64,000 bases of DNA from an uncultured delta proteobacterium. GTDB lineage: Bacteria; Desulfobacterota; RBG-13-43-22. Below, piece by piece: positions 41,706 to 62,507 of this stretch. The translations under genes were made by a program, and so were the position numbers. Numbering within the stretch: the first letter of the stretch is position 1; the number at the start of each line of letters is the position of its first letter. The stretch is taken from positions 32,001-96,000 of the forward strand of contig CAVQFQ010000008.1 in NCBI GenBank assembly GCA_963711835.1, read 5' to 3'. The notes under the pieces are model-generated. The model was not told the DNA's origin and did no database searches. It was given only the letters and a program-made list of their open reading frames with translations.

Positions 41706-42089
41706 TTGTTCTCCCAGATGTTTCAAGCGGCCCTGCATGATTTTTTTTACGTGCTCCTGTTTTTGCTGGTGGCCCTTATTTTCGCCGTGATACCGATCGT
41801 CCTTTCCGTCTATGTGGCCCCCCATGTCTACGGAGAAAAACGGCGCACTACCTATGAAAGCGGTATGCCTCCGGTGGGCACGGCCTGGATCCAGTTCGGG
41901 GCCTCCTATTATCTCTTTGCCCTGATCTTTCTGGCCTTCGATGTGGATGTGCTCTACCTTTTTCCGGTGCTGATAGCTTATGAAAGGAATGGCCAGTATT
42001 TTCAACTCCTCGAACTGGCCATCTTCCTCTTTCTGATCTCCTTGACCATCGTTTATGCCTGGCGGAAGGGGGTATTTCGATGGAGGTAA
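41706..42089 (+). CDS. nuoA: Complex I subunit A
   Basis: [27 protein letters not shown]. Confidence 0.92.
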
Positions 42090-42595
42090 AAGAGACCCCG
42101 GCGATTGTCAAATTTGCCCCGGTCCAGGATATCCTTAATCTGGCCCGGGCCAGTTCTCTCTGGCCCATGACTTTCGGGATCGCCTGTTGTTCCATAGAAA
42201 TGATGGCCGCCGGCATGGCCCGTTTTGATCTGGATCGTTTTGGAATCATCTTTCGATCCACCCCCCGCCAGTCGGATGTCATGATTGTGGCCGGCACCAT
42301 TTCCCATAAATTTGTCCCGACCATCAAGACCCTTTGGGATCAAATGCCGGCCCCCAAATGGGTCATTGCCATGGGCAATTGCGCCATCTCCGGAGGCCCT
42401 TTTGCCTACGACGGGCAATATGCCATCGTCAACGGGGCGGATAAAATCGTCCCGGTGGACATCTATATCCCCGGCTGCCCCCCGCGTCCCGAGGGGCTGA
42501 TCCAGGGATTACTTCAACTACAAAAAAAGATTACCCGAGGCATGCTGGATGCTAACCGAAGGGCAGAAAAAGCAGCTCGAAGATCTAAAAAATAG
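42080..42595 (+). CDS. nuoB: Complex I subunit B
   Basis: [33 protein letters not shown]. Confidence 0.95.
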
Positions 42596-43043
42596 CCTGG
42601 GACAGGCTGTTCCCGAAGCGGAGTTGCTGGAAAGCCTCTATGGCCGGACCGGCTATCATCTGGAGGTGCGCCTTATCATGCGCGGCATGCGCCGAGTGGC
42701 CCGGGAAATGGAGGCCAGGCGTTTTTACCTCGAGACCATTACCGCGGTCGATTTTCTGGAAGCCTTTGAATTAATTTATCTTTTTGCCTGTTATGACCAA
42801 GAGCCCTTTCGAGTCATGACCCGGATCCGACTCCCCAAAGAGGCTTCGGCCTTTACCCTCTCGGCCATCTACCCGGAAGCCATCTGGTTGGAACGGGAGG
42901 TTTACGACTTTTTTGGGATCCGTTTCCTGGGGCACCCCAACCTGAAACGGATCCTCTTGCCCGACGAGGTGGATTATTTCCCTTTGTTAAAGACCTTCGG
43001 CAAAACCAGGGTCACCGAAGAAATCGACGATATCTTATGCTGA
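42549..43043 (+). CDS. nuoC: Complex I subunit C
   Basis: [26 protein letters not shown]. Confidence 0.92.
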
Positions 43044-44164
43044 ATATCCATACCATTGACAATAAGACCCTGAACGAGCGTATTTACTACCTCAACCTGG
43101 GACCGCAGCATCCCAGCACCCACGGGGTCTTGCGCCTTTTCCTGACCCTGGACGGCGAGGTGGTTATCGAAGCCGAGCCGATTATCGGTTACTCACACCG
43201 CGGCCATGAAAAGATGGCGGAAAACAGGACCTACGAACAATTTTTACCCAATCCCCCGCGCATGGATTATCTCTCCGGCCTCCTTTTCAACCAGGGCTAC
43301 TGCATGGCGGTGGAAAAACTCTGCGGGATTCAGGTCCCTAAAAGGGCCGAATACATCCGGGTTATTACCTCGGAATTAAATCGGATCTCCAGTCATCTTT
43401 TGGGCGTCATGGCCTTTGTCATGGACCTGGGGGCCTTTACCCCCTTTCTTTACGGCTGGGACGATCGGGAAGCGGTCCTGGACCTCTTGGAACGGGTCAG
43501 CGGATCCCGTCTGACCTATTGTTATAACCGTTTCGGCGGGGTGCGCAACGACATCGACAAGGCATTTTATGACGGCACCCGCCGTTTTATCGAACGGTTG
43601 CGGGGCCGTTTCAAGGATTATTTCGATCTGATCCACGAAAATGTCATTTTTATCAACCGGACCAAAGGGGTTGGGATCATCACCCCGGATATGGCCCTGG
43701 AGTACGGGGTTACCGGTCCCTCCTTAAGGGCCGCCGGGGTCCTCTATGACCTGCGCAGGAATGAGCCTTACTCCGCTTACCCGGAATTCGATTTTGAGAT
43801 TCCGGTCCGGGAAGCCGGGGATGTCATGGCCCGCTATGAGGTTCGGATCGCCGAGATGGAGCAAAGCCTGACTATCATCGAGCAGGCCTTGGACGGACTG
43901 CCCCCGGGTCCGATTCGGGCCCGCGTTCCCCGCTTTGTCACCCCTCCGGCCGGAGACTGCTACCTGGCCATGGAAAGCGCCCGAGGGGCCGTAGGCTTCT
44001 ATATCGTCAGCGACGGAACGCGCATCCCCTACCGGATCAAGGTGCGGGCCCCCTCCTTTTCCAACTTATTCATCCTAACCAAAATTCTGCCGGGTAACTT
44101 TGTGGCCGATACCATTGCCATCCTGGGCAGTATCGATGTGGTGGTTCCGGAGATTGATCGGTGA
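43037..44164 (+). CDS. nuoD: Complex I subunit D
   Basis: [27 protein letters not shown]-terminal EIDR; no NiFe CxxC motifs. Confidence 0.95.
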
Positions 44165-45180
44165 GTATTTCAGAAATCGCCATAGTCTATGATACCTTGC
44201 AAGTCCTGAAGGCCGTCTACGGATTCCTGGGCTATGACGTCACCGTAGCCCTCATCGGCTTGTTGCTGATCGTGGGATTTATCCAGGTCAACGCCCTCTT
44301 TCTGATCTGGCTGGAACGCAAAGTGGCCGGCCATATCCAACTCCGCCCCGGCCCCATGGAGGTCGGGCCCCACGGCCTGCTCCAGACCCTTGCCGACGGA
44401 ATAAAATTGATGGGCAAGGAATTGATAACGCCCCAGTTGGCGGACAAACCGCTCTACTGGCTGGCTCCTATCATCATCTTAATCCCGGCCCTGGTCTGTT
44501 TCGTGGTCATCCCCTTCAGCCCCCTGCTGCAGGTGCGGGATATCAATGTGGGCATCCTGCTGATATTTTCGATTTCCAGTCTGACGGGTTTGTCCATCCT
44601 GATGGGGGGCTGGGCCTCAAACAACAAATACTCCCTGATCGGGGCGGCCCGTTCGGTGGCTCAGATCATCGCCTATGAGATCCCTCTGCTGCTGTCCACC
44701 ATGTCGGTCATCATCATGTGCAATTCCTTCAAGATGAGTGAAATCATCGCCGCCCAGTCCTCGGTCTGGTATATACTTTACCAGCCCATTGCCGCCGTCA
44801 TCTTCCTGGTCGGGGCCACCGCCGAAACCAACCGGGCTCCCTTCGATCTGGTCGAGGCCGAATCGGAACTGGTTTCCGGGTTCCATACCGAATATACCGG
44901 TATGCGTTTTGCCCTTTTTTTCCTGGCCGAATACAGCAATATGTTTATTACCGCAGCCATGGCCACGACCCTCTTTTTTGGAGGCTGGCAAGGGCCGGTT
45001 TTTCCGGGACTGATCTGGTTTATGATTAAATGTTATGCCCTGATCTTCGGGGTCATCTGGGTCCGCTGGACCTTTCCCCGGCTCCGTTTTGATCAATTGA
45101 TGAATTTCGCCTGGAAGATACTGATCCCGGTGGCCCTGCTTAATCTGATGATTACGGCCATTGTGGTCAAATTGGTCTAA
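44161..45180 (+). CDS. nuoH: Complex I subunit H
   Basis: WLERKV...[35 protein letters not shown]. Confidence 0.95.
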
Positions 45181-45184
45181 TGAT

Positions 45185-45643
45185 ATGACAGCTCCGTCCA
45201 ACCTCAAACAATACGGTCAGGAGATCCTGTTCGGATCCAAGAGCCTGGTGATCGGCATGTGGATCACTTTCAAGCGGCTTTTGCAGCGGATCGTCACCGT
45301 CCAGTACCCCCGGCAGAAACTGACCATGTTCCCGAATTTCCGGGGACATATCGAGGCCATTCGTTTTGACGACACCAAGAGCCACCATTGTGTGGCCTGC
45401 GGCCTCTGCGCCCGCATCTGCCCCTCCCATGTCATTAAGGTCCAGGGCGCCAAGACCAAGGCCAGTGATCTCAAGCGCGGCCAGAATTATTTTATCGACT
45501 TTACCAAGTGCAGTCTTTGCGGTCTCTGTGTGGATGTCTGTCCGGAAAACACCCTGCGTTTCTCCCGGGAGTATGAACTGGCCTTTTTCTCCCGCTGGGA
45601 CGGCGTCATCGATCTCATGAAGCGCTTGGAGGAATCCAAATGA
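45185..45643 (+). CDS. nuoI: Complex I subunit I
   Basis: TVQYP, CVACGLCARICP, CSLCGLCVDVCP. Confidence 0.93.
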   Translation: MTAPSNLKQYGQEILFGSKSLVIGMWITFKRLLQRIVTVQYPRQKLTMFPNFRGHIEAIRFDDTKSHHCVACGLCARICPSHVIKVQGAKTKASDLKRGQNYFIDFTKCSLCGLCVDVCPENTLRFSREYELAFFSRWDGVIDLMKRLEESK

Positions 45644-46173
45644 ACAACCTCTCGGCTACTATTTCTCCCTGGCTGCTGGCCCAAGCCGCCCTTTGGTTCA
45701 CCATCCTGATTACCTTGACCGGGTCGCTGCTGGCCGTCATCCCCAAGAATATCATCCATAATGTCATGGGCCTGGCCCTGGCCATGTTCGGTGTCACCGG
45801 GATCTATCTTTACCTGGGAAGCCAGTTCGTGGCCATGATGCAGCTCTTGATTTATGTCGGGGCCATTTGTGTCACCTATATCTTTGCCATTATGCTCTCG
45901 CCGCCTCTGCAACAGGAACTGCCCAAGAGGAGAAGGGCCAAATTTCTCTCGGCCCTGCTGGTCAGCGGCGTAACTTTTGTCGCCATGGCCCTCATGGTGG
46001 CCCGACTGCCATGGGAACCGATCCGGACCGTCTCCCGGGATTGGTCGATCAAGACCTTAGGCCAGGCCTTGCTGACCCGTTATTTTCTGGTCTTTGAATT
46101 AATTTCCTTGCTCCTGGCCATAGCCATTATCGGGGCCATCCTGATCGCCGGGCTGGACCGGGAAAGGGAGTAG
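45640..46173 (+). CDS. nuoJ: Complex I subunit J
   Basis: QLLIYVGAI, FELISLLL. Confidence 0.92.
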   Translation: MNNLSATISPWLLAQAALWFTILITLTGSLLAVIPKNIIHNVMGLALAMFGVTGIYLYLGSQFVAMMQLLIYVGAICVTYIFAIMLSPPLQQELPKRRRAKFLSALLVSGVTFVAMALMVARLPWEPIRTVSRDWSIKTLGQALLTRYFLVFELISLLLAIAIIGAILIAGLDRERE

Positions 46174-46175
46174 CC

Positions 46176-46484
46176 ATGGAAAATCTTTCGCTTTATTTAC
46201 TCCTCGGGGCCCTGATGTTCTGCATCGGCCTCTTCGGGTTGCTGCAACACAACTCCTTAATCGGCATGTTGATTGCCACGGAACTTATTTTAAACGGTGC
46301 CGGTATGAATTTTATGGCCTTCAATATGTTTTTATCCCCCGACCCGGTTCTGGGGCAGGCCTTTACGCTCTTCATCATGGGGGTCGCCGCCGCCGAGGCC
46401 GCCATTGCCTTGAGCATCATCATTGCCGTCTACCGCCGCTTTAGGGAAATCCGAGTGGACAGCGTCAGCGAACTGAAAGGATAA
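46176..46484 (+). CDS. nuoK: Complex I subunit K
   Basis: ELILNG, VAAAEAAIAL. Confidence 0.93.
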   Translation: MENLSLYLLLGALMFCIGLFGLLQHNSLIGMLIATELILNGAGMNFMAFNMFLSPDPVLGQAFTLFIMGVAAAEAAIALSIIIAVYRRFREIRVDSVSELKG

Positions 46485-46503
46485 GACCTTCGATCACCCG
46501 CTC

Positions 46504-48000
46504 ATGGAAACCATCTTCTCCATAAAACCCTTCCTAACGGTCTTAATCCCAAGCCTGGCCTCCCTGCTCATTTTGGCCACACCGAAAAAGCCGAATCTGC
46601 GGGAGGCCTGGTCGATCCTGGGGGCGGTGGCCACCTGTTTGACCGTGCTCTCCATGACCCCCCTGGTCCTGGCCGGCAAAGCTGTGGAATACACCCCGTT
46701 TGTGATTTTACCGGGGATCTCGATGAAGTTCCGGGTCGATGCCCTGGGCATCCTCTTCGGGACCATCGCTTCCTTTCTCTGGATCTTGGTTTCCTTCTAC
46801 AACATCGGTTACATGCGCTCCCTGAAGGAACATGCCCAGACCCGTTACTACTTCTGCTTTGCCGTAGCCATCGTCGGCGCCGTGGGAGTGGCCTTTTCCG
46901 GCAATCTCTTCACCCTCTATCTCTTTTATGAAATCATTACCATTTTCACCTATCCTCTGGTGGCCCATCATCAGGATGACGAGGCCTATGAGGGGGGCCG
47001 GAAGTATATGGTTTACCTGACCGGGACCGCCAAGGGCTTCTTCCTGCCGGCCATCATCCTGACCTATATCCTCTGCGGCACCCTGGACTTTGCCCCCTCG
47101 GGGATCGTCAAGGGAATTTTCCCAGCCTCGGCCGACCCGACCCTGGTCACCATAACCTATGTCCTTTATCTGGCCGGCTTTGCCAAGGCCGCCATCATGC
47201 CCTTTCACAACTGGCTGCCCTCGGCCATGGTGGCCCCTACCCCGGTTAGCGCCCTGCTCCATGCCGTGGCCGTGGTCAAGGCCGGGGTCTTCTGTACCAG
47301 CCGGGTCATGCTTTCGGTCTTCGGGGTGGAACTCCTGGACCAGTTGAATCTCGGCATCCCCACCGCCTATGCGGCCTCCTTTACTATTTTAGCGGCCTCG
47401 ATCATCGCCCTGAGCAAGGATGACCTCAAGGCCCGGCTGGCCTATTCCACGGTCAGCCAGCTTTCCTATATTATTTTGGGGGTGGCCCTGCTGACCCCCA
47501 GCGCCGTCACCGGCGGGCTGATCCATATGGCCAATCATGCCTTCTCCAAGATTACCCTCTTTATGTGCGCCGGATCCATTTATGTGGCCCTGCACACCAA
47601 AAAAATCAGCGAGATGGGGGGTATCGGCCGGAAGATGCCCTTTACCATGGGTGCCTTCGGCGTGGCCTCCCTGAGCATGATCGGGGTTCCCCTGGTCTGC
47701 GGTTTTGTGACCAAGTGGTATATCGCCCTGGGGGTGCTGGAGTCCCAGCACCATTTCTTCCTCCTGGTTTTGCTGGCCAGCACTATTTTGAATACCGGTT
47801 ATTTCATCCCGGTGGTCTTTAAAGCCTTCTTCGATCGCCCCGGCCCGGCACTGGAAAGCAGCGGGCATTCCAACCCGGAAGGTCTCCGGGAGGCCCCGGC
47901 TTTCATGGTCGTTCCCCTGGTCCTGACGGCCCTGGGCTCGATCCTGTTTGGCTTGTATCCCGATTATTTTTTGAATATCGTCAAGGCGGTTTTCCAATGA
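46504..48000 (+). CDS. Antiporter-like subunit (MrpD/NuoL-core type, no lateral-helix tail)
   Basis: LFYEII, KAAIMPFHNWLPSAMVAPTPVSALLH, LAYSTVSQL, NHAFSK, GFVTK. Confidence 0.9.
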   Translation: METIFSIKPFLTVLIPSLASLLILATPKKPNLREAWSILGAVATCLTVLSMTPLVLAGKAVEYTPFVILPGISMKFRVDALGILFGTIASFLWILVSFYNIGYMRSLKEHAQTRYYFCFAVAIVGAVGVAFSGNLFTLYLFYEIITIFTYPLVAHHQDDEAYEGGRKYMVYLTGTAKGFFLPAIILTYILCGTLDFAPSGIVKGIFPASADPTLVTITYVLYLAGFAKAAIMPFHNWLPSAMVAPTPVSALLHAVAVVKAGVFCTSRVMLSVFGVELLDQLNLGIPTAYAASFTILAASIIALSKDDLKARLAYSTVSQLSYIILGVALLTPSAVTGGLIHMANHAFSKITLFMCAGSIYVALHTKKISEMGGIGRKMPFTMGAFGVASLSMIGVPLVCGFVTKWYIALGVLESQHHFFLLVLLASTILNTGYFIPVVFKAFFDRPGPALESSGHSNPEGLREAPAFMVVPLVLTALGSILFGLYPDYFLNIVKAVFQ

Positions 48001-48245
48001 ACTGGGCCCAACCGATGGAGTTTTTACGAAATCATCTTAAGGTGCTGATCTGGATCCTCTATCTCCTCATGGGGGCGGCGGTTCTTTTCGATATTTTCAT
48101 ACCCCGCCATGAGGCCCACTTTTTTGGAGATAAGATCCCCGGCTTCTGGTCCGGCTTCGGGCTGATCGCCTGTATCCTTCTGATCCGCATCATGAAAGGC
48201 CTGGCTCACAGCCTGCTGATGAAAAAAGAGGATTACTATGGATAG
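47997..48245 (+). CDS. Small two-TM protein between antiporter subunits
   Basis: 82 aa, IPGFWSGFG...KKEDYY; overlaps both neighbours (translational coupling). Confidence 0.8.
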   Translation: MNWAQPMEFLRNHLKVLIWILYLLMGAAVLFDIFIPRHEAHFFGDKIPGFWSGFGLIACILLIRIMKGLAHSLLMKKEDYYG

Positions 48246-50001
48246 CTGGCTTCATCCGGCCCTTTTCTTCATCCTGGGCGCCTTTTTTATCCCCCTCTTA
48301 AAGGGCCGGATCAAACAGATCTATGTCCTGGTACTGCCGGCAGTGGCTTTTTACGATGTCATCAATATGGTCCCCGGTGTCTATGGGGAAATCCAATATC
48401 TGGGCTTCAACATCATCCTGGGCCGGGTAGACCGCCTGACCCTGGTCTTTGCCCATGTCTTCACCCTGATGGCTTTCCTGGGCGTCCTTTACGGCCTTCA
48501 CGTTAAGGAAGACGGGCACCTCATGGCGGCCTTTTTTTATGTGGGGGGTTCCCTGGGAGTGGTTTTTGCAGGAGACTATCTGACGGTCTTCATCTTCTGG
48601 GAGATGATGGCCTTCGCCTCGGTCTTCCTGATCTGGTACCGCAAGGTCCCGGCTTCCATCTCGGCCGGCTTCCGCTATCTCCTGATGCACGTCTTCGGCG
48701 GCCTGCTGCTGCTGGCCGGGATCTTTCTCCATTATAAAAATACCGGGAGCCTGGCTTTTGAACTCATCCCCAAGGCCGGAGCCGGCCCGGCTGAATATTT
48801 AATTTTGGCCGGTTTTGCCCTCAATGCCGCCGTGTTCCCCTTGCATGCCTGGCTGCCGGATGCCTATCCGGAAGCCACCGTAACCGGGGCTGTTTTCATG
48901 TGCGCCTTTACGACCAAGACGGCCGTCTATGTCCTGGCCCGGGCCTTTCCCGGCTATGATATCCTGGCCGTTATGGGTACGGCCATGACCATCTATGGGG
49001 TCTGCTACGCCACCATCGAAAACGATATGCGGCGGATTCTCTCTTACCACATCATCAGCCAGGTGGGCTACATGGTGGCCGGCGTCGGTATCGGCACGGA
49101 ACTGGCCATCAACGGCGCCTCAGCCCATGCCTACGCCCACATCCTCTATAAGGCCCTGCTCTTCATGGGGGCCGGCGCGGTGATCCAGATGACCGGTAAA
49201 TCCAAACTGAACGAACTGGGCGGTCTCTATAAATATATGCCCCTTTCCCTGATCTTTTACTGCGTGGGCGGGATCTCCATTTCCGGTTTTCCCCTGTTCA
49301 GCGGCTTTGTCAGCAAATCCATGATCGTGGCCGGGGCCGGCGAGGCCCATCATCCGGTCCTGATGGTCCTGATGCTCCTGGCCTCGGTGGGGACCTTCCT
49401 TTCAGTCGGATTGAAGCTCCCCTATTTCGCCTGGTTCGGCAAGGATTGCGGTCTCCGCCCCAAAGAACCGCCCCGGAATATGCTTTGGGCCATGGGTTTG
49501 ACCTCCCTGCTCTGCTTTATCATCGGCGTTTATCCTAAAGTCCTTTATGACCTATTGCCCTTTCCGGTCCATTATCAGCCCTATACCGGCACCCACCTCT
49601 CCGAAACGATCCAGATCCTGCTTTTTACCGGGCTGGGGTTTTTCCTGCTGCTGAAAAGGCTGACCCCGGAACCGAAGATCAATCTGGACTTCGACTGGTT
49701 CTACCGCGCCGGGACGTCCGGGTTTATGTGGCTGGCCCGTAAACCGATCCAGGGCTTCGATTCCGGATGGGGAGAGCTTTACCGCACCGTGGCCCTCAGG
49801 ATCATGATGCTCCTGGCCGCTTTTTTCGCCTGGTTTGACCGCTGGGGCATCGACGGGGTGGTGGATAACCTCGCTTACGGTACCCGGGGGGCGGGCAATA
49901 AGCTTCGCCGGGTTCAGAGCGGCAATATTCAATATTATTTGGGCTTGGCCCTGGTCACCTTTTTTATTATCATCGGGGTCTATCTGCTTCTATCCTTTTG
50001 A
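48238..50001 (+). CDS. Antiporter-like subunit (Mrp-type core with NuoL-like C-terminal helix)
   Basis: FWEMM, LNAAVFPLHAWLPDAYPEA, GFVSK; tail FDRWGIDGVVD...LRRVQSGNIQYY. Confidence 0.9.
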   Translation: MDSWLHPALFFILGAFFIPLLKGRIKQIYVLVLPAVAFYDVINMVPGVYGEIQYLGFNIILGRVDRLTLVFAHVFTLMAFLGVLYGLHVKEDGHLMAAFFYVGGSLGVVFAGDYLTVFIFWEMMAFASVFLIWYRKVPASISAGFRYLLMHVFGGLLLLAGIFLHYKNTGSLAFELIPKAGAGPAEYLILAGFALNAAVFPLHAWLPDAYPEATVTGAVFMCAFTTKTAVYVLARAFPGYDILAVMGTAMTIYGVCYATIENDMRRILSYHIISQVGYMVAGVGIGTELAINGASAHAYAHILYKALLFMGAGAVIQMTGKSKLNELGGLYKYMPLSLIFYCVGGISISGFPLFSGFVSKSMIVAGAGEAHHPVLMVLMLLASVGTFLSVGLKLPYFAWFGKDCGLRPKEPPRNMLWAMGLTSLLCFIIGVYPKVLYDLLPFPVHYQPYTGTHLSETIQILLFTGLGFFLLLKRLTPEPKINLDFDWFYRAGTSGFMWLARKPIQGFDSGWGELYRTVALRIMMLLAAFFAWFDRWGIDGVVDNLAYGTRGAGNKLRRVQSGNIQYYLGLALVTFFIIIGVYLLLSF

Positions 50002-50044
50002 AATATGAATTTTCAGGTTTAAATAGACAGGGAAGTTTACCTTA

Positions 50045-51541
50045 ATGGATTTTTTGATTCCCAATCAGCTTAATTACCCCATTTTGAGCAGCCTTATTTT
50101 TCTGCCCCTGGCCGGGGCCCTGGTCATATTTCTGATCCGCGATGAAAAGGTGGCCAAAATCTGGTCCCTTTTCATCAGCCTGGTCATTTTTGGCCTGTCT
50201 TTGCCGCTGTATATCTATTTTGATTCCTCGACTTACAAATACCAGTTTGCCGAACATGTGCCCTGGATTCCTTCCTTTAATATTTTTTATACCCTGGGCG
50301 TGGACGGCATAAGCCTTCTTTTGATCCTTCTGACCACCTTATTGGTCCCCATTTGTATCCTGGCTTCCTGGAACTATATTGCCAAACGGGTCAAGGAGTT
50401 TCTTTTCTGCCTCCTGCTCATGGAAACAGCCTGCGTCGGGGTCTTTTCGGCCCTGGATTTCGTCTTGTTCTATGTTATGTGGGAAGCCATGCTGGTCCCC
50501 ATGTATCTCCTGATCGCCGTCTGGGGCGGGCCGGAGAAGGTCTATGCCTCGATCAAATTTTTTATTTATACCATGGCCGGGAGCGTCTTTCTGTTGGTGG
50601 CCCTGATCGCCCTCTACCTTTCGGCCGGCACCTTCAGCATCCCCCAGTTGATGACCCATTCCTATTCCTTCAACTTCCAGGTCTGGATCTTTCTGGCCTT
50701 TGCCGTGGCCTTCGCCATCAAGGTGCCCATGGCCCCTTTCCATACCTGGCTGCCGGCCGCCCATGTGGAGGCCCCGACGGCCGGCAGCGTCCTGCTGGCC
50801 AGTGTCCTGTTGAAGATGGGGACCTACGGTTTTATCCGCTTCTGCCTGCCCATCACCCCCCAGGCCAGTATCTATTTTGCCCCCTATCTCCTCTGGCTGT
50901 CGATCATCTCCATTCTTTACGGCGGCTATGTCGCCCTGGGGCAGAGTGACATGAAGCGCTTAATCGCCTATTCCAGCGTAGCCCATATGGGTTTTGTCAC
51001 CCTGGGAATCTTTCTTTTCAACCGCCAGGGGCTCGAAGGGGCCATCCTGCAGATGATCAATCACGGCATTACCACCGGTGCCCTCTTTCTCTGTGTAGGC
51101 ATTATCTATGAACGCAGCCACAGCCGGCTGATTATGGATAATGCCGGTATCGGCAAGATCATGCCCCTCTATGTGGGCTTCCTGGGATTCTTCTCCCTGT
51201 CGTCCATGGCCTTTCCCGGGACCAACAGCTTTGTGGGCGAGTTGCTGGTCCTGATCGGCACCTTTACCGGGCACAAGCTCTTGGGCGCCCTGACCATTCC
51301 GGGCGTGGTTCTGGCGGCAGCCTATATGCTGCGCCTGTTGCAGAAAATCGCCTGGGGCGGAAAAGGAAATCCGGCCTTCCTGGATTTGAACCTGAGGGAG
51401 ATTATCTACCTGATCCCCCTGGCCCTGCTGGTCCTCTGGGTCGGTTTCTCCCCGGGTCCTTTTCTGAATATCATGCACACCAGCGTGAACCATCTTATCG
51501 AGCAGCTTCAGGCAGCCGATGCCCTGGTCCTGGCCCGATAA
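50045..51541 (+). CDS. nuoM: Complex I subunit M
   Basis: GVDGIS, WEAML, IKVPMAPFHTWLP, LLKMG, FVGEL. Confidence 0.94.
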   Translation: MDFLIPNQLNYPILSSLIFLPLAGALVIFLIRDEKVAKIWSLFISLVIFGLSLPLYIYFDSSTYKYQFAEHVPWIPSFNIFYTLGVDGISLLLILLTTLLVPICILASWNYIAKRVKEFLFCLLLMETACVGVFSALDFVLFYVMWEAMLVPMYLLIAVWGGPEKVYASIKFFIYTMAGSVFLLVALIALYLSAGTFSIPQLMTHSYSFNFQVWIFLAFAVAFAIKVPMAPFHTWLPAAHVEAPTAGSVLLASVLLKMGTYGFIRFCLPITPQASIYFAPYLLWLSIISILYGGYVALGQSDMKRLIAYSSVAHMGFVTLGIFLFNRQGLEGAILQMINHGITTGALFLCVGIIYERSHSRLIMDNAGIGKIMPLYVGFLGFFSLSSMAFPGTNSFVGELLVLIGTFTGHKLLGALTIPGVVLAAAYMLRLLQKIAWGGKGNPAFLDLNLREIIYLIPLALLVLWVGFSPGPFLNIMHTSVNHLIEQLQAADALVLAR

Positions 51542-51615
51542 ATGGAAACGGATAGGGGTCCGCTGAAAAAGGTCCAAGCGCCAATGATTTCGGAAAGAAT
51601 TAAGGAATAAACTTC

Positions 51616-53034
51616 ATGGATCTGCGGTTATTCATACCTGAGCTCTATCTTCTTTTTCTGGCCTTGGTCTTTTTTGCCCAATCCCTCTGGAAATCTCCGG
51701 CCAAATTAAATCAATCCCTGGCCCTGGGTTTATCGGCCTTCGGGGTAATCCTCAGTTTGTTAACCTTGAACCAGTCCGGGGAGCTTTTTTACCAGGCCTA
51801 CCGGGTAGATCTTTTTTCACAGGGCTTTAAAATCCTGATTAGCCTGGGCCTCTTTCTGATCATTGTCTTGGGCCGGGACTTAAAGAGTGTTGATGAGCGC
51901 CTCCATCCGGAATACTTCATGTTCCTGGGTTTAAGCTCCCTGGGGTTGACGCTCATGGTCAGCAGTGTGGAACTCCTGACTATTTTTATCGCCATGGAGC
52001 TTTCCTCCTTTTCCCTTTATGTCCTGATCCCTTTGCGGAAACAGACCTTTTCTACCCAGATGGAAGCGGCCATTAAGTACATCATCTTTGGAGCGGCCTC
52101 AACCGGGATCATGATTTTCGGGATGAGTTATGTTTTCGGCGTCGCCCAAACCACCTATTTGGCTGAGCTGATCCGGAAATTCCCCCTCTTGATCAGCCAG
52201 CCGGTAGCCCTGACTGGATTGATTATGGTCCTGGCCGGTTTTTTCTTTAAACTGGCGGTAGTGCCCTTCCATTTCTGGACCCCGGATATTTATCAGGGGG
52301 CGGCCAATGAAACGACCAGCTTTATTGCCACCATGCCCAAGCTGGCCGGGTTGGCCCTTTTGATCCGCCTGGTTTCCATAGGGGGTCCCCAGGCTACGGC
52401 CATGATCCAGGTTCTGGTCCTCCTGGCCGCTGTCTCCATGACCTTCGGGAATTTGGTGGCCCTGGTTCAAAAAGACCTAAAACGCATCCTGGCCTATTCC
52501 AGTATCGCCCATGCCGGCTATGTCCTGCTGGGGGTTTTAAGCCTGAATACCATCGGTTTTGCGGCCGCGGTCTATCATATTACAGCCTACCTGCTGATGA
52601 ACCTGGCTTGTTTCCTGGTTATCTGCAGCGTCTCACGGCAGGGGGAGGATGTCTCGGTCGGGGACCTCTCCGGCCTGTATCGCCGTTCCCCCCTCCTGGC
52701 CTTTACCCTGGCCGTGGGGGCTTTTGCCTTGGCCGGGATCCCCCCGACAGCCGGATTTACCGGAAAGTTTTTCCTTTTTACCGCGGCCTTGGACCAGGGG
52801 CACCTGGCCCTGGTGATCATCGCCGCGGTGAATACGGCCATTTCCATTTTTTATTATTTGAATCTGGTTCGCGCGGCTTACGGCCAGGATCCCGACGGGT
52901 TGCCGGCGGTCTCTTTGAATGTTCCATTGCGGCTTTTGAGTCTGGCCCTGATCGCCGCTATTTTTCTCCTGGGGGTCTTGCCGGCCTGGTTTATTGACTT
53001 GGCCCGAAAGGCCTGCAGTGCCATTATTTTATAA
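51616..53034 (+). CDS. nuoN: Complex I subunit N
   Basis: EAAIKY, FKLAVVPFHFWTPDIYQGA, LAYSSIAHAGY, GIPPTAGFTGK. Confidence 0.94.
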   Translation: MDLRLFIPELYLLFLALVFFAQSLWKSPAKLNQSLALGLSAFGVILSLLTLNQSGELFYQAYRVDLFSQGFKILISLGLFLIIVLGRDLKSVDERLHPEYFMFLGLSSLGLTLMVSSVELLTIFIAMELSSFSLYVLIPLRKQTFSTQMEAAIKYIIFGAASTGIMIFGMSYVFGVAQTTYLAELIRKFPLLISQPVALTGLIMVLAGFFFKLAVVPFHFWTPDIYQGAANETTSFIATMPKLAGLALLIRLVSIGGPQATAMIQVLVLLAAVSMTFGNLVALVQKDLKRILAYSSIAHAGYVLLGVLSLNTIGFAAAVYHITAYLLMNLACFLVICSVSRQGEDVSVGDLSGLYRRSPLLAFTLAVGAFALAGIPPTAGFTGKFFLFTAALDQGHLALVIIAAVNTAISIFYYLNLVRAAYGQDPDGLPAVSLNVPLRLLSLALIAAIFLLGVLPAWFIDLARKACSAIIL

Positions 53035-53110
53035 ACCATGAAGAGTGAAGGCAGAATTTGGTTAAAAAGATAAGAATAAATTTTAAAACCATTTAGTCTA
53101 AGAATCTATT

Positions 53111-53602
53111 ATGTTAGCTTCCAATCACCTTCAAGATCAGGACCTGAAACTACTGGAATCCATAGTGGCCGAACGGGGAACCCATCCCTCTTCGGTCCTT
53201 CAAATCCTGCTGGATATCAACCATCACTACCATTACCTCCCTCGGGAAAGTCTGGAATGGGTTTCCCGGCAGGTCCGAATGCCCATCAATCAGATATTCA
53301 GCGTGGCTACCTTCTTCAAGGTCTTCAGTCTGAAACCCAGGGGCCGGACCTTGGTCCATGTCTGCACCGGAACAGCCTGCCATGTTAAAGGAACGCCCCG
53401 CATCCTCGATCGCCTGGAAAAGGAATTAAACCTGAAACCCGGGGAGACGACGGCGGACCTGGCTATCACCCTGGAAACGGTCAACTGTGTCGGGGCCTGC
53501 GCTTCAGCCCCGGTCGTCCGTGTCGATGAGGCGACCTTCAGTGAAATGACGCCCTCGAAGGCAGCGGACCTGGTCAAAGAACTATTGAGAAGAGAGTCTT
53601 AA
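53111..53602 (+). CDS. nuoE: NuoE/HydC-like 2Fe-2S subunit
   Basis: VATFF, CTGTACHVKG, NCVGAC. Confidence 0.92.
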   Translation: MLASNHLQDQDLKLLESIVAERGTHPSSVLQILLDINHHYHYLPRESLEWVSRQVRMPINQIFSVATFFKVFSLKPRGRTLVHVCTGTACHVKGTPRILDRLEKELNLKPGETTADLAITLETVNCVGACASAPVVRVDEATFSEMTPSKAADLVKELLRRES

Positions 53603-56600
53603 TGGAGCAGTTATTTATGAACCGGCTAACCAGCCTGCAGGATCTTGAACCCTTACGCCAGTCCATTCTGGAAAAGCGCCGGAAGGTTCGGAAGCGCATC
53701 CGGGTCTGCATCGGACCGGCCTGCCACTCCCAGGGAGGCGAAACCCTGTCCCGGATGATAGAAGCCGCCCTCAAAGAACGCGGGGCAGCGGACGATCTTA
53801 TGGTCACGCCTACCGGGTGCCACGGTTTTTGCGCCCGGGGCCCGGTCATGGTGATCGAACCGGAAAATATCTTTTACGAACGGGTCCGGTCGGAGCGGAT
53901 CCCCGAGATCGTCGAAAAGTCGATCCTGGGGGATGAACTGCTGGAAGATCTCCTTTACCTGGACCCGGAGACCAACAAACGGATCGTTCACGAAGCGGAG
54001 ATCCCTTTTTACGCCCGCCAGGAACAGATCGTTTTCAAGGACTCGGGCCGGAATTTTCCAACCGATATCGACGATTATATCTCCCGGGGCGGCTACTCGG
54101 CCCTGGTCAAAGTCCTTTCCGAACTGACCCCTGAAGAAGTCATTGAAGAGGTAAAAATTTCCGGTTTGCGGGGCCGGGGCGGGGGCGGTTTTCCGACCGG
54201 GACCAAATGGGAATCCTGCCGCAAGTCCCGGGGAGTCTTGAAATATGTCATGTGCAACGCCGACGAGGGCGATCCCGGGGCCTATATGGACCGGGCCTTG
54301 CTGGAGGGCAATCCCCATCAGGTCCTGGAAGGCATGATTGTCGGTGCCTATGCCATCGGCGCCAGGGAAGGGTATCTCTATGTCCGCTACGAATACCCCA
54401 TGGCCACCCAAAATGCCATCTGGGCCATCAAACAGGCCAAGGAATACGGATTGCTGGGTGAAAATATCTTAGGCACCCCTTTCAGCCTCGAACTTTTCGT
54501 CACCCGGGGGGCCGGGGCCTTTGTCTGCGGGGAATCAACCGCCCTGATGGCCTCTCTGGAGGGCAAGATCGGGGAACCGCGGGGCAAGCATATCCATACC
54601 GTGGAAAAAGGACTCTGGAACCGTCCCAGCAATCTCAACAATGTCGAGACCTGGGCTACGGTTCCCCTGATCATCAACAACGGGGGGCAATGGCTGGCCT
54701 CCATCGGAACCGAGCGGAGCAAGGGGACCAAGATCTTTTCTCTGGTAGGCAAGATCAACAATCCCGGCCTGGTCGAAGTGTCCATGGGAACCCCCTTGAG
54801 AAAGATCATCTACGACATCGGCGGGGGTGTACCGGGCGGCAAAGCCTTCAAGGCCGTCCAGTCCGGAGGCCCTTCCGGGGGCTGCATCCCAAAAGACCTG
54901 ATCGATCTGGCGGTAGATTTCGAAAAACTGAAAGAGGCCGGTTCCATGATGGGTTCAGGCGGTATGATCGTCATGGACGAGGATACCTGCATGGTCGATG
55001 TGGCCCGCTATTTCCTGAATTTTCTGGAGGAGGAATCCTGCGGGAAATGCGTCCCCTGCCGTATGGGCGTCAAGCGCATGCATGAAATAGTCACCCGGAT
55101 CTGCCTCGGGCAGGGGCGGGAGGAAGACCTTGAAAAACTGAAAGATCTGGGAGAAACGATCAGCGAGGCCGCGCTTTGCGGATTGGGAAAATCCTCGGCC
55201 AACCCGGTTTTATCGACCCTAAAATATTTTCGGGCCGAATATGAGGCCCATATTAAAGACAAGGAATGCCCGGCCGGTGTCTGCCGCCGGCTTTCGGCCG
55301 CCCCCTGTCAGAAAGCCTGTCCGGCCGGAATCGATGTCCCCTCCTATGTAGCCCTGATCTCCGATGCCCATTATGAAGAGGCCCTAGAAATTGTCCGTCA
55401 GGACAACCCTTTTCCCTCGATCTGCGGCCGTATCTGCCAGCACGGCTGCGAGGTCACCTGCACCCGCGGCGAGATCGACCATTCCATCGACATCATGCAC
55501 TTGAAGCGCTTCATTTCCGATTTTGAAGCGACCCGGCCCTGGCGCCTTCCCGAACGGATCATCCCGACCCAAAACGAGAAAGTGGCGGTCGTCGGGGGAG
55601 GACCGGCCGGTCTTTCCGCCGCCTATTTTCTAGCCAGAAGAGGCTATCCGGTAACCCTCTTCGAGGCTGCGCCGGTCCTGGGGGGTATGCCGGCCCTGGC
55701 TATCCCCGATTTCCGCCTTTCTAAAAACGCCTTGCAACGGGATATCGACTATATCCTGGCCCTGGGAATAGAGGTTAAAACCAATACCCCGGTCGGGGAA
55801 AACCCCTCTCTGGAGGATCTTAAAAAACAAGGCTATGAAGCCATCTTTCTGGCCACCGGGGCCGACAAAGGCCTTGAAATGGGGGTTTTCGGGGAAAACC
55901 TCTACGCCGGCGTCGTCGATGCCCTGGATTACCTCAAGGCCTATCATTTGAAACAGTTGATCAACCCGGGAAAGGAAGTCGTCGTCATCGGCGGGGGCTA
56001 CGCCGCCATGGACGCCGCCCGGATGGCCTTGCGGCTGGGGGCCAAGGTTCACCTTCTTTTCCGGCGCTCCGAAGAGGAGCTGCCGGCCGATCCCCTGGAG
56101 CTGGAGGCGGCCAAGGAGGAGGGGATCCGGTTTCATTTTCTGACCACCCCCACAAAATTGCTGGCCAAGAACAACCGGGTAACCGGGGTCGAATGCATCG
56201 GGCTCGAGATCGCCGCTGCCGACACCAGCGGCCGCAAGCGGGTTTTGCCCAGGGAAGGGACCGAATTCATCCTGCCCGCAGATCTGGTTATCCCGGCCGT
56301 CGGCCAGACGCCGGATATTTCCCCCTTCAGGGGAATGGCCTTATCGATCTCACCCTGGAACCTTCTCCAGGTCAACCCTGAAACACTCCAGACCAATTGG
56401 CCCCATATCTTCGCCGGCGGCGATGTCACCACCGGCTCCGCTTCGGTGATTGAAGCGGTGGCGGTAGGGAAAAAGGCCGCCTGGGCTGTTCATAATTTCC
56501 TTTCCGGGACCACCGGCAGAATGCCTTTAGCCAAGCCCCGCCTCCGCCTGGAAAGGGTGGCGGTATCTCCCGACGAACCTCAGGCTACGGAAAGACCGGC

Positions 56601-56721
56601 CATGACCCTGGCCCCCGCCTCGGAAAGAAAAAAATCTTTCGAAGAAGCAGAGCTGGGCTTGAGTGAACGACAAGCGGTAACCGAAGCCAGGCGCTGCCTG
56701 CGCTGCGATCTGACGGAGTAA
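53602..56721 (+). CDS. NuoF/HydB-like NADH-FMN subunit fused to GltD-like FAD/NADPH oxidoreductase
   Basis: CIGPAC...GCHGFC, GLRGRGGGGFPTG, NADEGDPGAYM, ESCGKCVPCR; then APCQKACP, CGRICQHGCEVTC, GGGPAG, GGGYAA..RRS, AGGD, RCLRC. Confidence 0.92.
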   Translation: MEQLFMNRLTSLQDLEPLRQSILEKRRKVRKRIRVCIGPACHSQGGETLSRMIEAALKERGAADDLMVTPTGCHGFCARGPVMVIEPENIFYERVRSERIPEIVEKSILGDELLEDLLYLDPETNKRIVHEAEIPFYARQEQIVFKDSGRNFPTDIDDYISRGGYSALVKVLSELTPEEVIEEVKISGLRGRGGGGFPTGTKWESCRKSRGVLKYVMCNADEGDPGAYMDRALLEGNPHQVLEGMIVGAYAIGAREGYLYVRYEYPMATQNAIWAIKQAKEYGLLGENILGTPFSLELFVTRGAGAFVCGESTALMASLEGKIGEPRGKHIHTVEKGLWNRPSNLNNVETWATVPLIINNGGQWLASIGTERSKGTKIFSLVGKINNPGLVEVSMGTPLRKIIYDIGGGVPGGKAFKAVQSGGPSGGCIPKDLIDLAVDFEKLKEAGSMMGSGGMIVMDEDTCMVDVARYFLNFLEEESCGKCVPCRMGVKRMHEIVTRICLGQGREEDLEKLKDLGETISEAALCGLGKSSANPVLSTLKYFRAEYEAHIKDKECPAGVCRRLSAAPCQKACPAGIDVPSYVALISDAHYEEALEIVRQDNPFPSICGRICQHGCEVTCTRGEIDHSIDIMHLKRFISDFEATRPWRLPERIIPTQNEKVAVVGGGPAGLSAAYFLARRGYPVTLFEAAPVLGGMPALAIPDFRLSKNALQRDIDYILALGIEVKTNTPVGENPSLEDLKKQGYEAIFLATGADKGLEMGVFGENLYAGVVDALDYLKAYHLKQLINPGKEVVVIGGGYAAMDAARMALRLGAKVHLLFRRSEEELPADPLELEAAKEEGIRFHFLTTPTKLLAKNNRVTGVECIGLEIAAADTSGRKRVLPREGTEFILPADLVIPAVGQTPDISPFRGMALSISPWNLLQVNPETLQTNWPHIFAGGDVTTGSASVIEAVAVGKKAAWAVHNFLSGTTGRMPLAKPRLRLERVAVSPDEPQATERPAMTLAPASERKKSFEEAELGLSERQAVTEARRCLRCDLTE

Positions 56722-56726
56722 GGTCT

Positions 56727-57455
56727 ATGCCCGGATCCAGGCCTCGTATTGATGAACCGAAAACCCCGCTGGGACTGGTCAAGCTTTATGAAAAACCCCA
56801 GATCACCGTCTGCGCCGGTCCGGCCCCCCACTATGAATGCGGGGGAAAAGGCCTCTATTCCGGTCTTTTTTCCGAAGCCAACCGATTAAACATTCCCCTC
56901 GCTTTAGCGCCGGGGAAATGCGGCTGTAGCGGATCCTGCCTGAAAGGTCCTTATCTCAGCCTGCCCAGAATGGGTCTTTTTTACCAGCAGGTCACGACCG
57001 AGCATATCCCCTTTATCCTGAAGGAGACCATACTCCAGGGAAAGATCCTTTTCCCCATCCTGCGCCTGGATCATCTCCAATCCATAAGGGGGGACCTGAT
57101 CTGGGAGAAATCCTCACGCTGCCTCATGACCCTGGATGCTTCATATTGTATGGTTCAGGTAGCCGAGTACCTCATTAAATTTCATGCTGAAGAATCCTGC
57201 GGCAAGTGCACCCCTTGCCGCCTGGGCATTAAGCGCTTGACCGAGGTCATTGAAGGGATCGGACGGGGACGGGCGAATCCGGAGGCCCTCTCGGAAATGG
57301 AAACGCTGACGGCCTTGATGACCCAGGCGGCTTATTGCGCCTTTGCCGGAAAGGCTTCGGATATCATCATGGCCATCCTCTCCTATTTCAGAGAAGAGTT
57401 TGAAGCCCATATTAAAGAGAAACGCTGTCCGGTCGGGGCCTGTAAGATGTTTTAA
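56727..57455 (+). CDS. Thioredoxin-like ferredoxin fused to NuoF C-terminal 4Fe-4S domain (mini-NuoF)
   Basis: VCAG..EC...CGCSGSCLKGP; ESCGKCTPCR...YC; AHIKEKRCPVGAC; no FMN/NADH domain. Confidence 0.85.
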   Translation: MPGSRPRIDEPKTPLGLVKLYEKPQITVCAGPAPHYECGGKGLYSGLFSEANRLNIPLALAPGKCGCSGSCLKGPYLSLPRMGLFYQQVTTEHIPFILKETILQGKILFPILRLDHLQSIRGDLIWEKSSRCLMTLDASYCMVQVAEYLIKFHAEESCGKCTPCRLGIKRLTEVIEGIGRGRANPEALSEMETLTALMTQAAYCAFAGKASDIIMAILSYFREEFEAHIKEKRCPVGACKMF

Positions 57456-57458
57456 AAA

Positions 57459-57540
57459 GCTATCAGCGGTCAGCCGTCACCAATCCCCCTTCCTCGGGGT
57501 GGTCGTTGCTGATCGCTGATTACTGACGGCTTAACGCTGC
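57459..57540. repeat. Heptamer-periodic imperfect palindrome (tcagc/gctga type)
   Basis: tcagcggtcagccgtca ... gctgatcgctgattactgacggct; related half-site gctgaccgctgac near 1455. Confidence 0.55.
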
Positions 57541-57559
57541 TTTAACAGGAGATTTAATC

Positions 57560-59794: not shown

Positions 59795-59925
59795 CGAAGA
59801 GGTTTGAAGTTTTTTTCACCTCTTAAAGAAATAAAGAAATGGTGTTGGGAGGGACCCCCCAACACCTGGATCCGGGATTCAATTCCCTATCCAACCCGAC
59901 CCTCTAAACCTTGTTTGGGGGCACC

Positions 59926-62382: not shown

Positions 62383-62507
62383 GAGACAGGGTTCATGGGT
62401 TCAAATTGTTCCCGGACCTTGTGCCCTCGGCCTTCTGCCTTTCCCCCTACAGCCGGAAATCTTATTCCTAGTGACTTGGATCTCTATCCGCAACCCGTTT
62501 TTAGGAG

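What the first reader, a model, noticed from the sequence alone, without database searches (positions are those of the whole stretch)
46504..53034. Four antiporter-like subunits with NuoL features split between two proteins
Seen: the 498-aa subunit has the NuoL/MrpA-type APTPVSALLH motif but no lateral helix; the 587-aa subunit has the NuoL-type tail (IDGVVD...LRRVQSG..QYY) but Asn in place of the usual TM7 Lys (LNAAVFPLH versus KxAxxPxH); an 82-aa 2-TM protein is translationally coupled between them. Known: canonical complex I has three such subunits (L, M, N); variants with an extra subunit exist. Inference: an Mrp-derived module replaced NuoL, possibly giving Na+ translocation or an additional pumping site.
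Basis: partly seen in the sequence, partly recalled or inferred. Interest (0 to 1): 0.7.

Follow-up and report, generated by a model that had tools for sequence, protein, structure and literature searches.

The report
Green-type complex I, four pump subunits
In this respiratory complex I operon the usual NuoL gene is replaced by two antiporter-type genes and a tiny membrane-protein gene, a layout already published as "green complex I"; the subunit predicted to sit at the far end always has asparagine where a normally essential lysine belongs, which would make it a natural test of how these pumps work.

Summary
The operon reads nuoABCDHIJK–D1 (498 aa)–s (82 aa)–D2 (587 aa)–nuoM–nuoN–NuoEFG-like genes. 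D1 and D2 pass the curated families PRK08375.1-1 and PRK12668. The same cassette lies in the rhizobial pSym operons, 55–57% identical, which Yu et al. 2022 (PMC9040806) call "green complex I". This scan found it before on other DNA.

It is not a split NuoL. The trio also occurs in stand-alone Mrp operons, and the complex I copies nest among Mrp copies.

- TM7 Asn196 and a TM6 His151 are invariant in 103 of 103 D2 proteins, in both contexts.
- D2's lateral helix is 25 residues longer than NuoL's, predicting the order D2–D1–M–N.
- s is predicted to bind D2's TM15 (score 0.76, best control 0.00).

Na+ pumping is unsupported: no Mrp small subunits were found in the genome (89% complete). A fifth proton per two electrons is inferred, about even odds.

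The parts
41706..46484 (+). nuoA, B, C, D, H, I, J, K: quinone module and small membrane subunits of the same operon
   Evidence: Pfam hits for all; NuoB, NuoD, NuoH, NuoK above NCBIfam cut-offs
46504..48000 (+). D1 (MrpD1-like, 498 aa, no lateral helix). Has GluTM5 143, LysTM7 228, His253 and Lys259 on TM8, and LysTM12 404 followed by Trp. Predicted middle subunit between NuoM and D2.
   Evidence: PRK08375.1-1 788 bits vs cut-off 663; residues invariant in 101/101; Trp405 in 99/101
47997..48245 (+). s, 82-aa two-TM protein; predicted brace on D2 TM9, TM13, TM15 and the start of the lateral helix
   Evidence: conserved family; 35% identical to the S. meliloti 'hypothetical protein' in the same place; predicted complex with D2 0.76, best control 0.00
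48238..50001 (+). D2 (MrpD2-like, 587 aa). Has Glu122, His151 (TM6), Asn196 in place of LysTM7, Lys227, Lys360-Ser361, TM15 451-470, lateral helix 487-559 and TM16 564-586. Predicted terminal subunit.
   Evidence: PRK12668 771 bits vs cut-off 564; AlphaFold2 with alignment, pLDDT 89
49693..49914 (+). D2 lateral helix (residues 486-559), 25 residues longer than NuoL's between the same two aspartate landmarks
   Evidence: 48-49 residues in 53/53 complex I D2 vs 23-24 in 30/30 NuoL; model residue 511 superposes on E. coli NuoL 563
50045..51541 (+). nuoM, with canonical GluTM12
   Evidence: TIGR01972 601 bits vs 264; Glu in 55/55
51616..53034 (+). nuoN
   Evidence: TIGR01770 356 bits vs 333
53111..59794 (+). 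Probable electron-input module: NuoE/HoxE-like (163 aa), NuoF fused to a GltD-like domain (1039 aa), F2 (242 aa, flavin-less NuoF-like), NuoG/FdhA-like (744 aa)
   Evidence: same four-gene order in L009 and L013, and E-F-F2 in L012; docking on this complex is inferred from gene order only

Best explanation
This operon encodes a 'green' complex I in which an Mrp-derived cassette (D1, s, D2) stands in place of NuoL, predicted to assemble in the order D2-D1-NuoM-NuoN and likely to move protons rather than sodium. Shown: the genes, their families, their orthology to the rhizobial cassette, the residue pattern and the extra 25 residues of lateral helix. Inferred: (1) D1 is the added middle subunit; its GluTM5 faces NuoM's GluTM12 and its LysTM12 faces D2's Glu122 (about 0.8). 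(2) D2 is terminal; its helix straps D1, M and N, and s braces D2's TM15 and the helix root (model-supported). (3) D2's invariant TM6 His151 likely takes over from the missing TM7 lysine as partner of Glu122, so the charge relay continues into D2 (about 0.5). (4) The ion is H+ (about 0.85). (5) The fourth subunit likely adds one proton, giving 5 H+ per 2 electrons (about 0.5). From my own knowledge of redox potentials, that suits pmf-driven reverse electron flow or a ferredoxin-level donor better than forward NADH-to-menaquinone flow.
For: Membership: the same J-K-D1-hypothetical-D2-M-N order and 4-nt/8-nt overlaps in S. meliloti pSymA and a Phyllobacterium plasmid; the same two NCBIfam families above cut-off; D2 56% identical; window D1 and rhizobial D1 in one clade, 97*; Yu et al. 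define green complex I as two MrpD-like subunits replacing NuoL. Order: anchor Asp to second Asp is 48-49 residues in 53/53 complex I D2 against 23-24 in 30/30 NuoL; anchor to Q[ST]G is 74-75 in 51/53 against 49-51. MrpA, which spans one subunit, has about 23 residues to its TM16 motif (my count on the alignment). So the series is about 23, 49, 74. Yu et al. report a further 26 residues when a second NuoM is present. Structure fixes the register: model residue 509-511 lands on E. coli NuoL 562-563 at rmsd 2.6-3.0 A over 475-487 residues, and 544-546 lands on 593-594, while D2's TM16 starts only at 564. D1 has Trp after LysTM12, like the inner subunits D0, M and N (hydrophobic) and unlike NuoL (Asp/Glu 31/31). 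s: score 0.76, best of 3 controls 0.00; the mark was reached by 116 of 157 solved and 2 of 215 mismatched pairs; the runs agree in at least 96% of contacts; partner pLDDT at least 75. Proton only: canonical NuoJ and NuoK; no Mrp small subunits found. Proton number scales with subunit number in the domino model (PMC10212512 passages).
Against: No biochemistry exists in anything I read. Measured from the hydropathy end of TM15 instead of the Asp anchor, the helix is only about 8 residues longer (median 94 vs 86.5). The order therefore rests on the anchor and on a predicted model whose pLDDT falls from 85 to about 50 along the helix, and VIA gives end points only. Losing LysTM7 blocks activity elsewhere: MrpA K223A (PMC5703873), Paracoccus Nqo13 K232Q (PMC9802314), NuoL K229A as cited in PMC4938563. 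D2 also lacks the acid after LysTM12 that links MrpA to the periplasm (Ser/Ala/Thr in most), so its proton exit is unexplained. I could not measure the His151-Glu122 distance. MqnA/D, MqnC and MenB were not found above cut-off, so the quinone is unidentified. The D2 tree needs 4-6 context switches, and a single complex I clade is rejected (p-AU 1.4e-06), so the history is not one clean transfer.
Confidence: 0.62

Rival explanations
1. Same assembly, but no extra proton. D1 does NuoL's pumping job and D2, lacking LysTM7, is only a terminal conduit and clamp, so the enzyme pumps the usual 4 H+/2e-.
For: Asn196 in 103/103 D2; TM7 Lys substitutions abolish activity in other subunits; D1 keeps the full Glu/Lys/His/Lys/Lys set including NuoL's TM8 His.
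Against: D2 keeps invariant Glu122, His151, Lys227 and Lys360, and near-invariant His297 and Lys305, across about 45% identity, which is more than a clamp needs.
Confidence: 0.3
2. D2 sits in NuoL's place next to NuoM and D1 is added at the tip. D2 residues 486-512 then only replace the helices that run along NuoL's own body.
For: D2 513-587 is colinear with the NuoL tail (GELY matching DEIY); the TM15-to-TM16 distance is only about 8 residues longer by hydropathy.
Against: Structural superposition puts D2 511 on NuoL 563; MrpA's anchor NFFYD aligns to D2's DWFYR; D1 has an inner-type Lys-Trp on TM12; gene order K-D1-s-D2 does not decide it.
Confidence: 0.17
3. The cassette brings Na+ translocation into complex I.
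For: Mrp ancestry and family names. D1 keeps the TM8 His of the MrpA/NuoL motif, which was studied for Na+ phenotypes in a B. subtilis complementation system (PMC4938563 passages).
Against: In the solved Mrp, Na+ passes through MrpA's C-terminal domain, MrpC, F, G and E, not through the large subunits; none was found here. D1 has Ala/Val (95-100 of 101) where the motif has Thr257 and Met258, and M258I gave the strongest effect in that study.
Confidence: 0.08
4. D1-s-D2 is a passenger that works apart from complex I, or one of its subunits is not incorporated.
For: The trio also lives in Mrp operons and has moved between contexts; the genome has a second, canonical nuo operon with its own NuoL.
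Against: No canonical nuoL in any of the 58 complex I-context loci fetched. D2 carries the NuoL-type TM16 tail only in complex I context and a different tail in Mrp context.
Confidence: 0.03

Closest known systems
[quoted passage not shown]
   Same: Two MrpD-like subunits in place of NuoL; J-K-D1-small ORF-D2-M-N with the same overlaps; same NCBIfam families; 55-57% identity; Asn196 and helix length shared.
   Different: Here the order is A-B-C-D-H-I-J-K-D1-s-D2-M-N, then an atypical input module (NuoF-GltD fusion plus F2). Rhizobia have J-K-D1-s-D2-M-N-A-B-C-D-E-F-G with H and I inverted. The host has dsrAB.
Complex_I_3 of Ca. Manganitrophaceae (Yu et al. 2022, PMC9040806, section 10 read)
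   Same: Two MrpD-like subunits related to the rhizobial ones replace NuoL.
   Different: It has a second NuoM (five pumps) and a further 26-residue helix insertion; the window has one NuoM and no such insertion.
Stand-alone Mrp antiporters of layout mrpE-F-G-B1-B2-C-D0-D1-s-D2 (48 loci here)
   Same: Orthologous D1, s and D2 with the same invariant residues, including Asn196 and His151.
   Different: They have MrpE, F, G, B, C and D0 and no redox subunits; their D2 tail lacks the NuoL-type IDG and Q[ST]G motifs and varies in length (anchor to TM16 49-106 residues).
2M complex I (Chadwick et al. 2018; not held, known only as cited in PMC9040806 and PMC7419157)
   Same: A fourth antiporter-like subunit accommodated by a lateral helix about 26 residues longer.
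   Different: There the extra subunit is a second NuoM and NuoL is kept; here NuoL is gone.
Canonical NuoL (E. coli structures 3RKO and 7Z84; 31 NuoL sequences here)
   Same: D2 has the NuoL fold with TM15, lateral helix and TM16 (VIA Z about 44); D1 has the TM7-8 loop motif and TM8 His.
   Different: Neither has Arg175, Asp178 or Asp400; D2 lacks LysTM7 and has LysTM8; D1 has both His and Lys on TM8.

Membership tests
Green complex I | [quoted passage not shown] | tested here: met
   PRK08375.1-1 and PRK12668 above cut-off; NuoL models below cut-off (221 and 176 bits vs 556)
Green complex I | The two subunits are orthologues of the rhizobial ones | tested here: met
   same families; 55-57% identity; D1 in one clade with L052, 97*. 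That the pSym operon fetched is the published green complex I is my match to the definition; the 2016 paper was not seen.
Green complex I | Single NuoM and NuoN follow; the other core subunits A-D and H-K are present | tested here: met
Green complex I | Rhizobial rearranged gene order (mentioned in PMC7415380) | tested here: not met
   window order differs. I treat this as lineage-specific, since the definition in PMC9040806 rests on the two subunits; the original definition could not be read.
Green complex I | All four subunits assemble and pump | not testable with these tools
   needs purification; only s-D2 binding was modelled
Mrp Na+/H+ antiporter (CPA3) | MrpB, C, E, F, G small subunits forming the Na+ path | tested here: not met
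   none in the operon; none found in the 89%-complete genome
2M complex I / Complex_I_3 | Second NuoM | tested here: not met
   four PF00361 genes on C8, one of them NuoM
Canonical NuoL | LysTM7, Arg175, Asp178, TM8 His, Asp400 and lateral helix in one chain | tested here: not met

The most novel reading that the evidence does not exclude
Green complex I and the related three-channel Mrp antiporters end in a terminal subunit (D2) that works without the 'universally essential' TM7 lysine and without the acidic exit residue. It uses an invariant TM6 histidine as the switch partner of GluTM5 and a different exit, perhaps via His453 on TM15 braced by the small subunit, and the enzyme moves 5 H+ per 2 electrons. 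This widespread natural variant would directly test the disputed NuoL-only-exit (domino) mechanism against one-proton-per-subunit models.
Probability: 0.3. Interest if true: 0.6.

Novelty: new member of a known kind. Interest (0 to 1): 0.27.

Why it matters
The architecture is in print and common, so its presence here matters little. The D2 family is above cut-off in 134 of 301 genomes of this phylum. The residue pattern is the useful part. Structural papers call LysTM7 absolutely conserved and essential, and debate whether all protons leave through the terminal subunit. A family whose predicted terminal subunit invariably swaps that lysine for Asn, gains a His nearby and lacks the exit acid offers a ready-made test. 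The S. meliloti pSymA copy makes it tractable in a laboratory strain. The small ORF, annotated as hypothetical, is probably a real subunit. I did not find the Asn/His pattern or the subunit order discussed in eight paper searches, but the two key primary papers and the figures of Yu et al. could not be seen.

Tried and rejected
Single-sequence fold of D2 was useless (pLDDT 41) and was repeated with an alignment. The profile search for distant or fused forms of s never ran, so I make no claim that s is never fused. Pfam, NCBIfam and the protein atlas gave no family for s. The promoter/terminator scan was at or near chance level (promoters 10 vs 10.9 expected; terminators 40 vs 28 +/- 6, weak stems). 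'Asn is an alignment artefact' was rejected. 'Asn arose when the cassette entered complex I' was rejected: it is in 40/40 Mrp-context D2. 'D1 and D2 are halves of a split nuoL' was rejected: both are full-length antiporter folds forming separate clades. A single origin of all complex I D2 was rejected by the AU test, while D1 needs only 2 changes. Menaquinone pathway markers were not found above cut-off, which is not proof of absence. Chadwick 2018 is not held; Degli Esposti 2016 did not appear in the searches; a search for the S. meliloti operon returned nothing. No D1-D2 or whole-arm complex was modelled, because the single job went to s-D2.
Full report
OBSERVATION. The ORF list and sequence show one co-oriented cluster from 41706 to 59794: nuoA, B, C, D, H, I, J, K, then a 498-aa protein (D1, 46504-48000), an 82-aa ORF (s, 47997-48245), a 587-aa protein (D2, 48238-50001), nuoM, nuoN, and four genes of an electron-input module. 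D1 overlaps s by 4 nt and s overlaps D2 by 8 nt. NCBIfam places D1 in PRK08375.1-1 (788 bits, cut-off 663) and D2 in PRK12668 (771, cut-off 564), both named 'antiporter subunit D'. The NuoL model scores them far below its cut-off (221 and 176 vs 556). NuoM and NuoN pass their own families, and s has no family. The genome (89% complete, 6.4% contamination) has eight PF00361 genes: these four, three in a canonical nuo operon on C10 and one in an Ech-like cluster on C25. It has dsrAB. Its close relatives carry Desulfobacterota/deltaproteobacterial titles.

IT IS A KNOWN DESIGN. Yu et al. [quoted passage not shown] A review (PMC7415380, passages) adds that it is upregulated in symbiosis and that its role is hypothetical. 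I tested membership directly. D2 matches 109 plasmid records at E below 1e-60, 67 of them Sinorhizobium. S. meliloti pSymA and a Phyllobacterium plasmid have J-K-D1-hypothetical-D2-M-N with the same overlaps, the same two families above cut-off, D1 55%, D2 56-57% and s 35% identical. Earlier notes of this scan report the same layout on other DNA, one marked as checked and in print.

DISTRIBUTION AND ORIGIN. PRK12668 is above cut-off in 134 of 301 genomes of the phylum. I fetched 60 regions around the 158 matches, chosen by hand for long contigs and spread, so their proportions are not frequencies. Of these, 28 are complex I operons with D1-s-D2 and no nuoL, 31 are stand-alone Mrp operons (mrpE-F-G-B1-B2-C-D0-D1-s-D2) and 1 is undetermined. 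The 50 loci add 28 complex I, 17 Mrp and 5 unrelated or undetermined; many of the complex I ones are close kin of the window. Trees rooted on NuoL, D0 and the other subunit (quick IQ-TREE, mixture model, 38 and 36 selected rows) give D1 and D2 separate clades. Complex I D1 rows, window and rhizobial included, form one clade (97*) nested among Mrp rows, though the branches that nest it have support of 93 and 86 only. Complex I D2 rows also nest among Mrp rows but with several switches (FastTree, 89 rows, 6 changes). An AU test rejects one clade for complex I D2, and one Mrp operon (L066) has complex I-type D1 and D2. So the direction Mrp to complex I is likely, with later exchange both ways. 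D2 has the NuoL-type tail only in complex I context, which suggests that an Mrp D2 core was joined to a NuoL tail (inference).

THE MISSING LYSINE. In a joint alignment the TM7 column is Asn in 94 of 94 D2 (53 complex I, 40 Mrp, 1 undetermined) and Lys in every readable D1, D0, NuoM, NuoN and NuoL. That set used a filter (BLAST score above 450, length above 520). Nine intact proteins it dropped also have Asn, as do three frameshifted ones. The Asn therefore predates entry into complex I and is a constraint, not decay. D2 also has an invariant His151 on TM6 (103/103), at a position that is Asn/Thr in NuoL, Thr in NuoM, Gly in NuoN and D0, and mostly Leu in D1. It keeps Glu122, Lys227 and Lys360 without exception, and His297 and Lys305 nearly so. 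I infer that His151 stands in for the lysine as partner of GluTM5; I could not measure the distance. Against this, the lysine is described as absolutely conserved and essential (PMC7419157 passages), and its loss blocks MrpA (PMC5703873 passages) and Paracoccus Nqo13 (PMC9802314 passages). Neither D1 nor D2 has NuoL's Arg175, Asp178 or the acid after LysTM12 (31/31 in NuoL; the E. coli residue numbers are recalled labels). 'NuoL split in two' therefore describes two motifs, not the ancestry.

SUBUNIT ORDER. The lateral helix works as a ruler. From the first anchor Asp (D2 486, NuoL xDE[IL]Y) to the Asp before the [IV]DG motif there are 48-49 residues in 53/53 complex I D2 and 23-24 in 30/30 NuoL (one NuoL with masked bases was left out). 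To the Q[ST]G before TM16 there are 74-75 residues in 51/53 (one 100, one unmatched) against 49-51. MrpA, which straps one subunit, has about 23 (my count). Twelve of 40 Mrp-context D2 measure 56-59 residues to TM16, like NuoL's 56, as expected for strapping D1 and D0; two are shorter (49) and 26 are longer and variable. The choice of anchor matters: measured from the hydropathy end of TM15 the excess is only about 8. Structure supports the Asp anchor. The AlphaFold2 model (104 sequences, pLDDT 89, pTM 0.86) has TM15 at 451-470, helix 487-559 and TM16 564-586. It superposes on E. coli NuoL with residue 509-511 at 562-563 (rmsd 2.6-3.0 A, 475-487 aligned, Z 43.7-44.5), and in looser fits 544-546 at 593-594. 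The NuoL Asp at this place docks on the next subunit (D648 in Paracoccus; its equivalence to E. coli D563 is recalled). D2 thus has one docking position near 510 and a second, sequence-equivalent Asp at 534, one subunit further on. D1 fits an inner position: Trp follows LysTM12 in 99/101, as hydrophobic residues do in D0, M and N. Predicted order: D2-D1-M-N, about 0.8.

THE SMALL PROTEIN. s is conserved between D1 and D2 in both contexts, with invariant Tyr81 and near-invariant Gly55 and Lys67. Folded with D2 1-540 it scores 0.76 against a best control of 0.00. The mark was reached by 116 of 157 solved and 2 of 215 mismatched pairs (rough here, since my own alignments were used); the runs agree in at least 96% of contacts and partner pLDDT is at least 75. 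Contacts are on D2 255-260, 331-339, 380-388, TM15 (451-475) and the linker 478-484 and 490, which holds conserved Asp484 and Arg490. The model supports binding; it does not show it. s likely braces TM15 and the root of the helix. Whether it also touches D1 was not tested.

WHICH ION, HOW MANY. In the solved Mrp the Na+ path runs through MrpA's C-terminal domain and MrpC, E, F and G. None was found in the operon or genome by tblastn or HMM. NuoJ and NuoK are of the complex I type. D1 keeps only the His of the MrpA/NuoL TM8 motif studied for Na+ phenotypes. Na+ pumping is therefore unlikely (0.08). In the domino model the number of antiporter-like subunits sets the proton count and all protons leave through the terminal one (PMC10212512 passages). 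Yu et al. likewise suggest 5-6 ions for such complexes. From my own knowledge of potentials, NADH to menaquinone yields about 0.5 eV per two electrons, too little for five protons at 150 mV. A fifth proton would suit reverse electron flow or a ferredoxin-level donor; the GltD-fused NuoF may serve that (inference). The quinone is unidentified. The main rival is that D2 adds no proton (0.3).

VERDICT. Observation confirmed; interpretation partly supported; a new member of a known and common kind. The invariant Asn/His pattern, the predicted order and the predicted role of s are modest additions. I did not find them in print in eight searches, with the two primary papers, the figures and the supplements unseen. 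Interest 0.27.

Noticed in passing
window 56727-57455 (+): F2, a 242-aa flavin-less NuoF-like protein with a Cys-rich N-terminal domain resembling a thioredoxin-type [2Fe-2S] ferredoxin (by eye) and the NuoF C-terminal [4Fe-4S] domain. It is present in 20 of 20 close-relative loci that include nuoN, directly after nuoN in 17, often with no nuoEFG nearby; it was not seen in the more distant complex I regions. It may be a constant adaptor for interchangeable input modules.
   Followed up: partly
window 53602-56721 (+): NuoF/HydB-like protein fused to a GltD-like flavin domain (1039 aa). In L015, L018 and L024 a GltD-like match lies instead in an 830-aa protein with a NuoG-type N-terminus.
   Followed up: partly
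   Followed up: partly
L090 (G027:C22:9000-28900): Mrp operon with two tandem D2 genes and no s gene found.
   Followed up: partly
L105 (G192:C21), L074, L092, L095: Rearranged green operons: J-K-M-N-D1-s-D2 in L105; G-B-D-I-A-C-H-J-K-D1-s-D2-M-N in the other three. In L074 and L092 the D2 core groups with Mrp copies although the tail is NuoL-type.
   Followed up: partly
G000:C10:142383-157486 and G000:C25:10217-15575: The genome has a second, canonical nuo operon with NuoL, M, N and EFG, and an Ech-like six-gene cluster.
   Followed up: partly
whole genome G000: dsrAB is present, but MqnA/D, MqnC and MenB are not found above cut-off despite two complex I operons. There are 25 crotonase-family matches, suggesting extensive acyl-CoA metabolism.
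   Followed up: no
window 59911-63866 (+): A PAS-type sensor histidine kinase and an NtrC-type response regulator (by sequence motifs) lie directly downstream of the operon.
   Followed up: no
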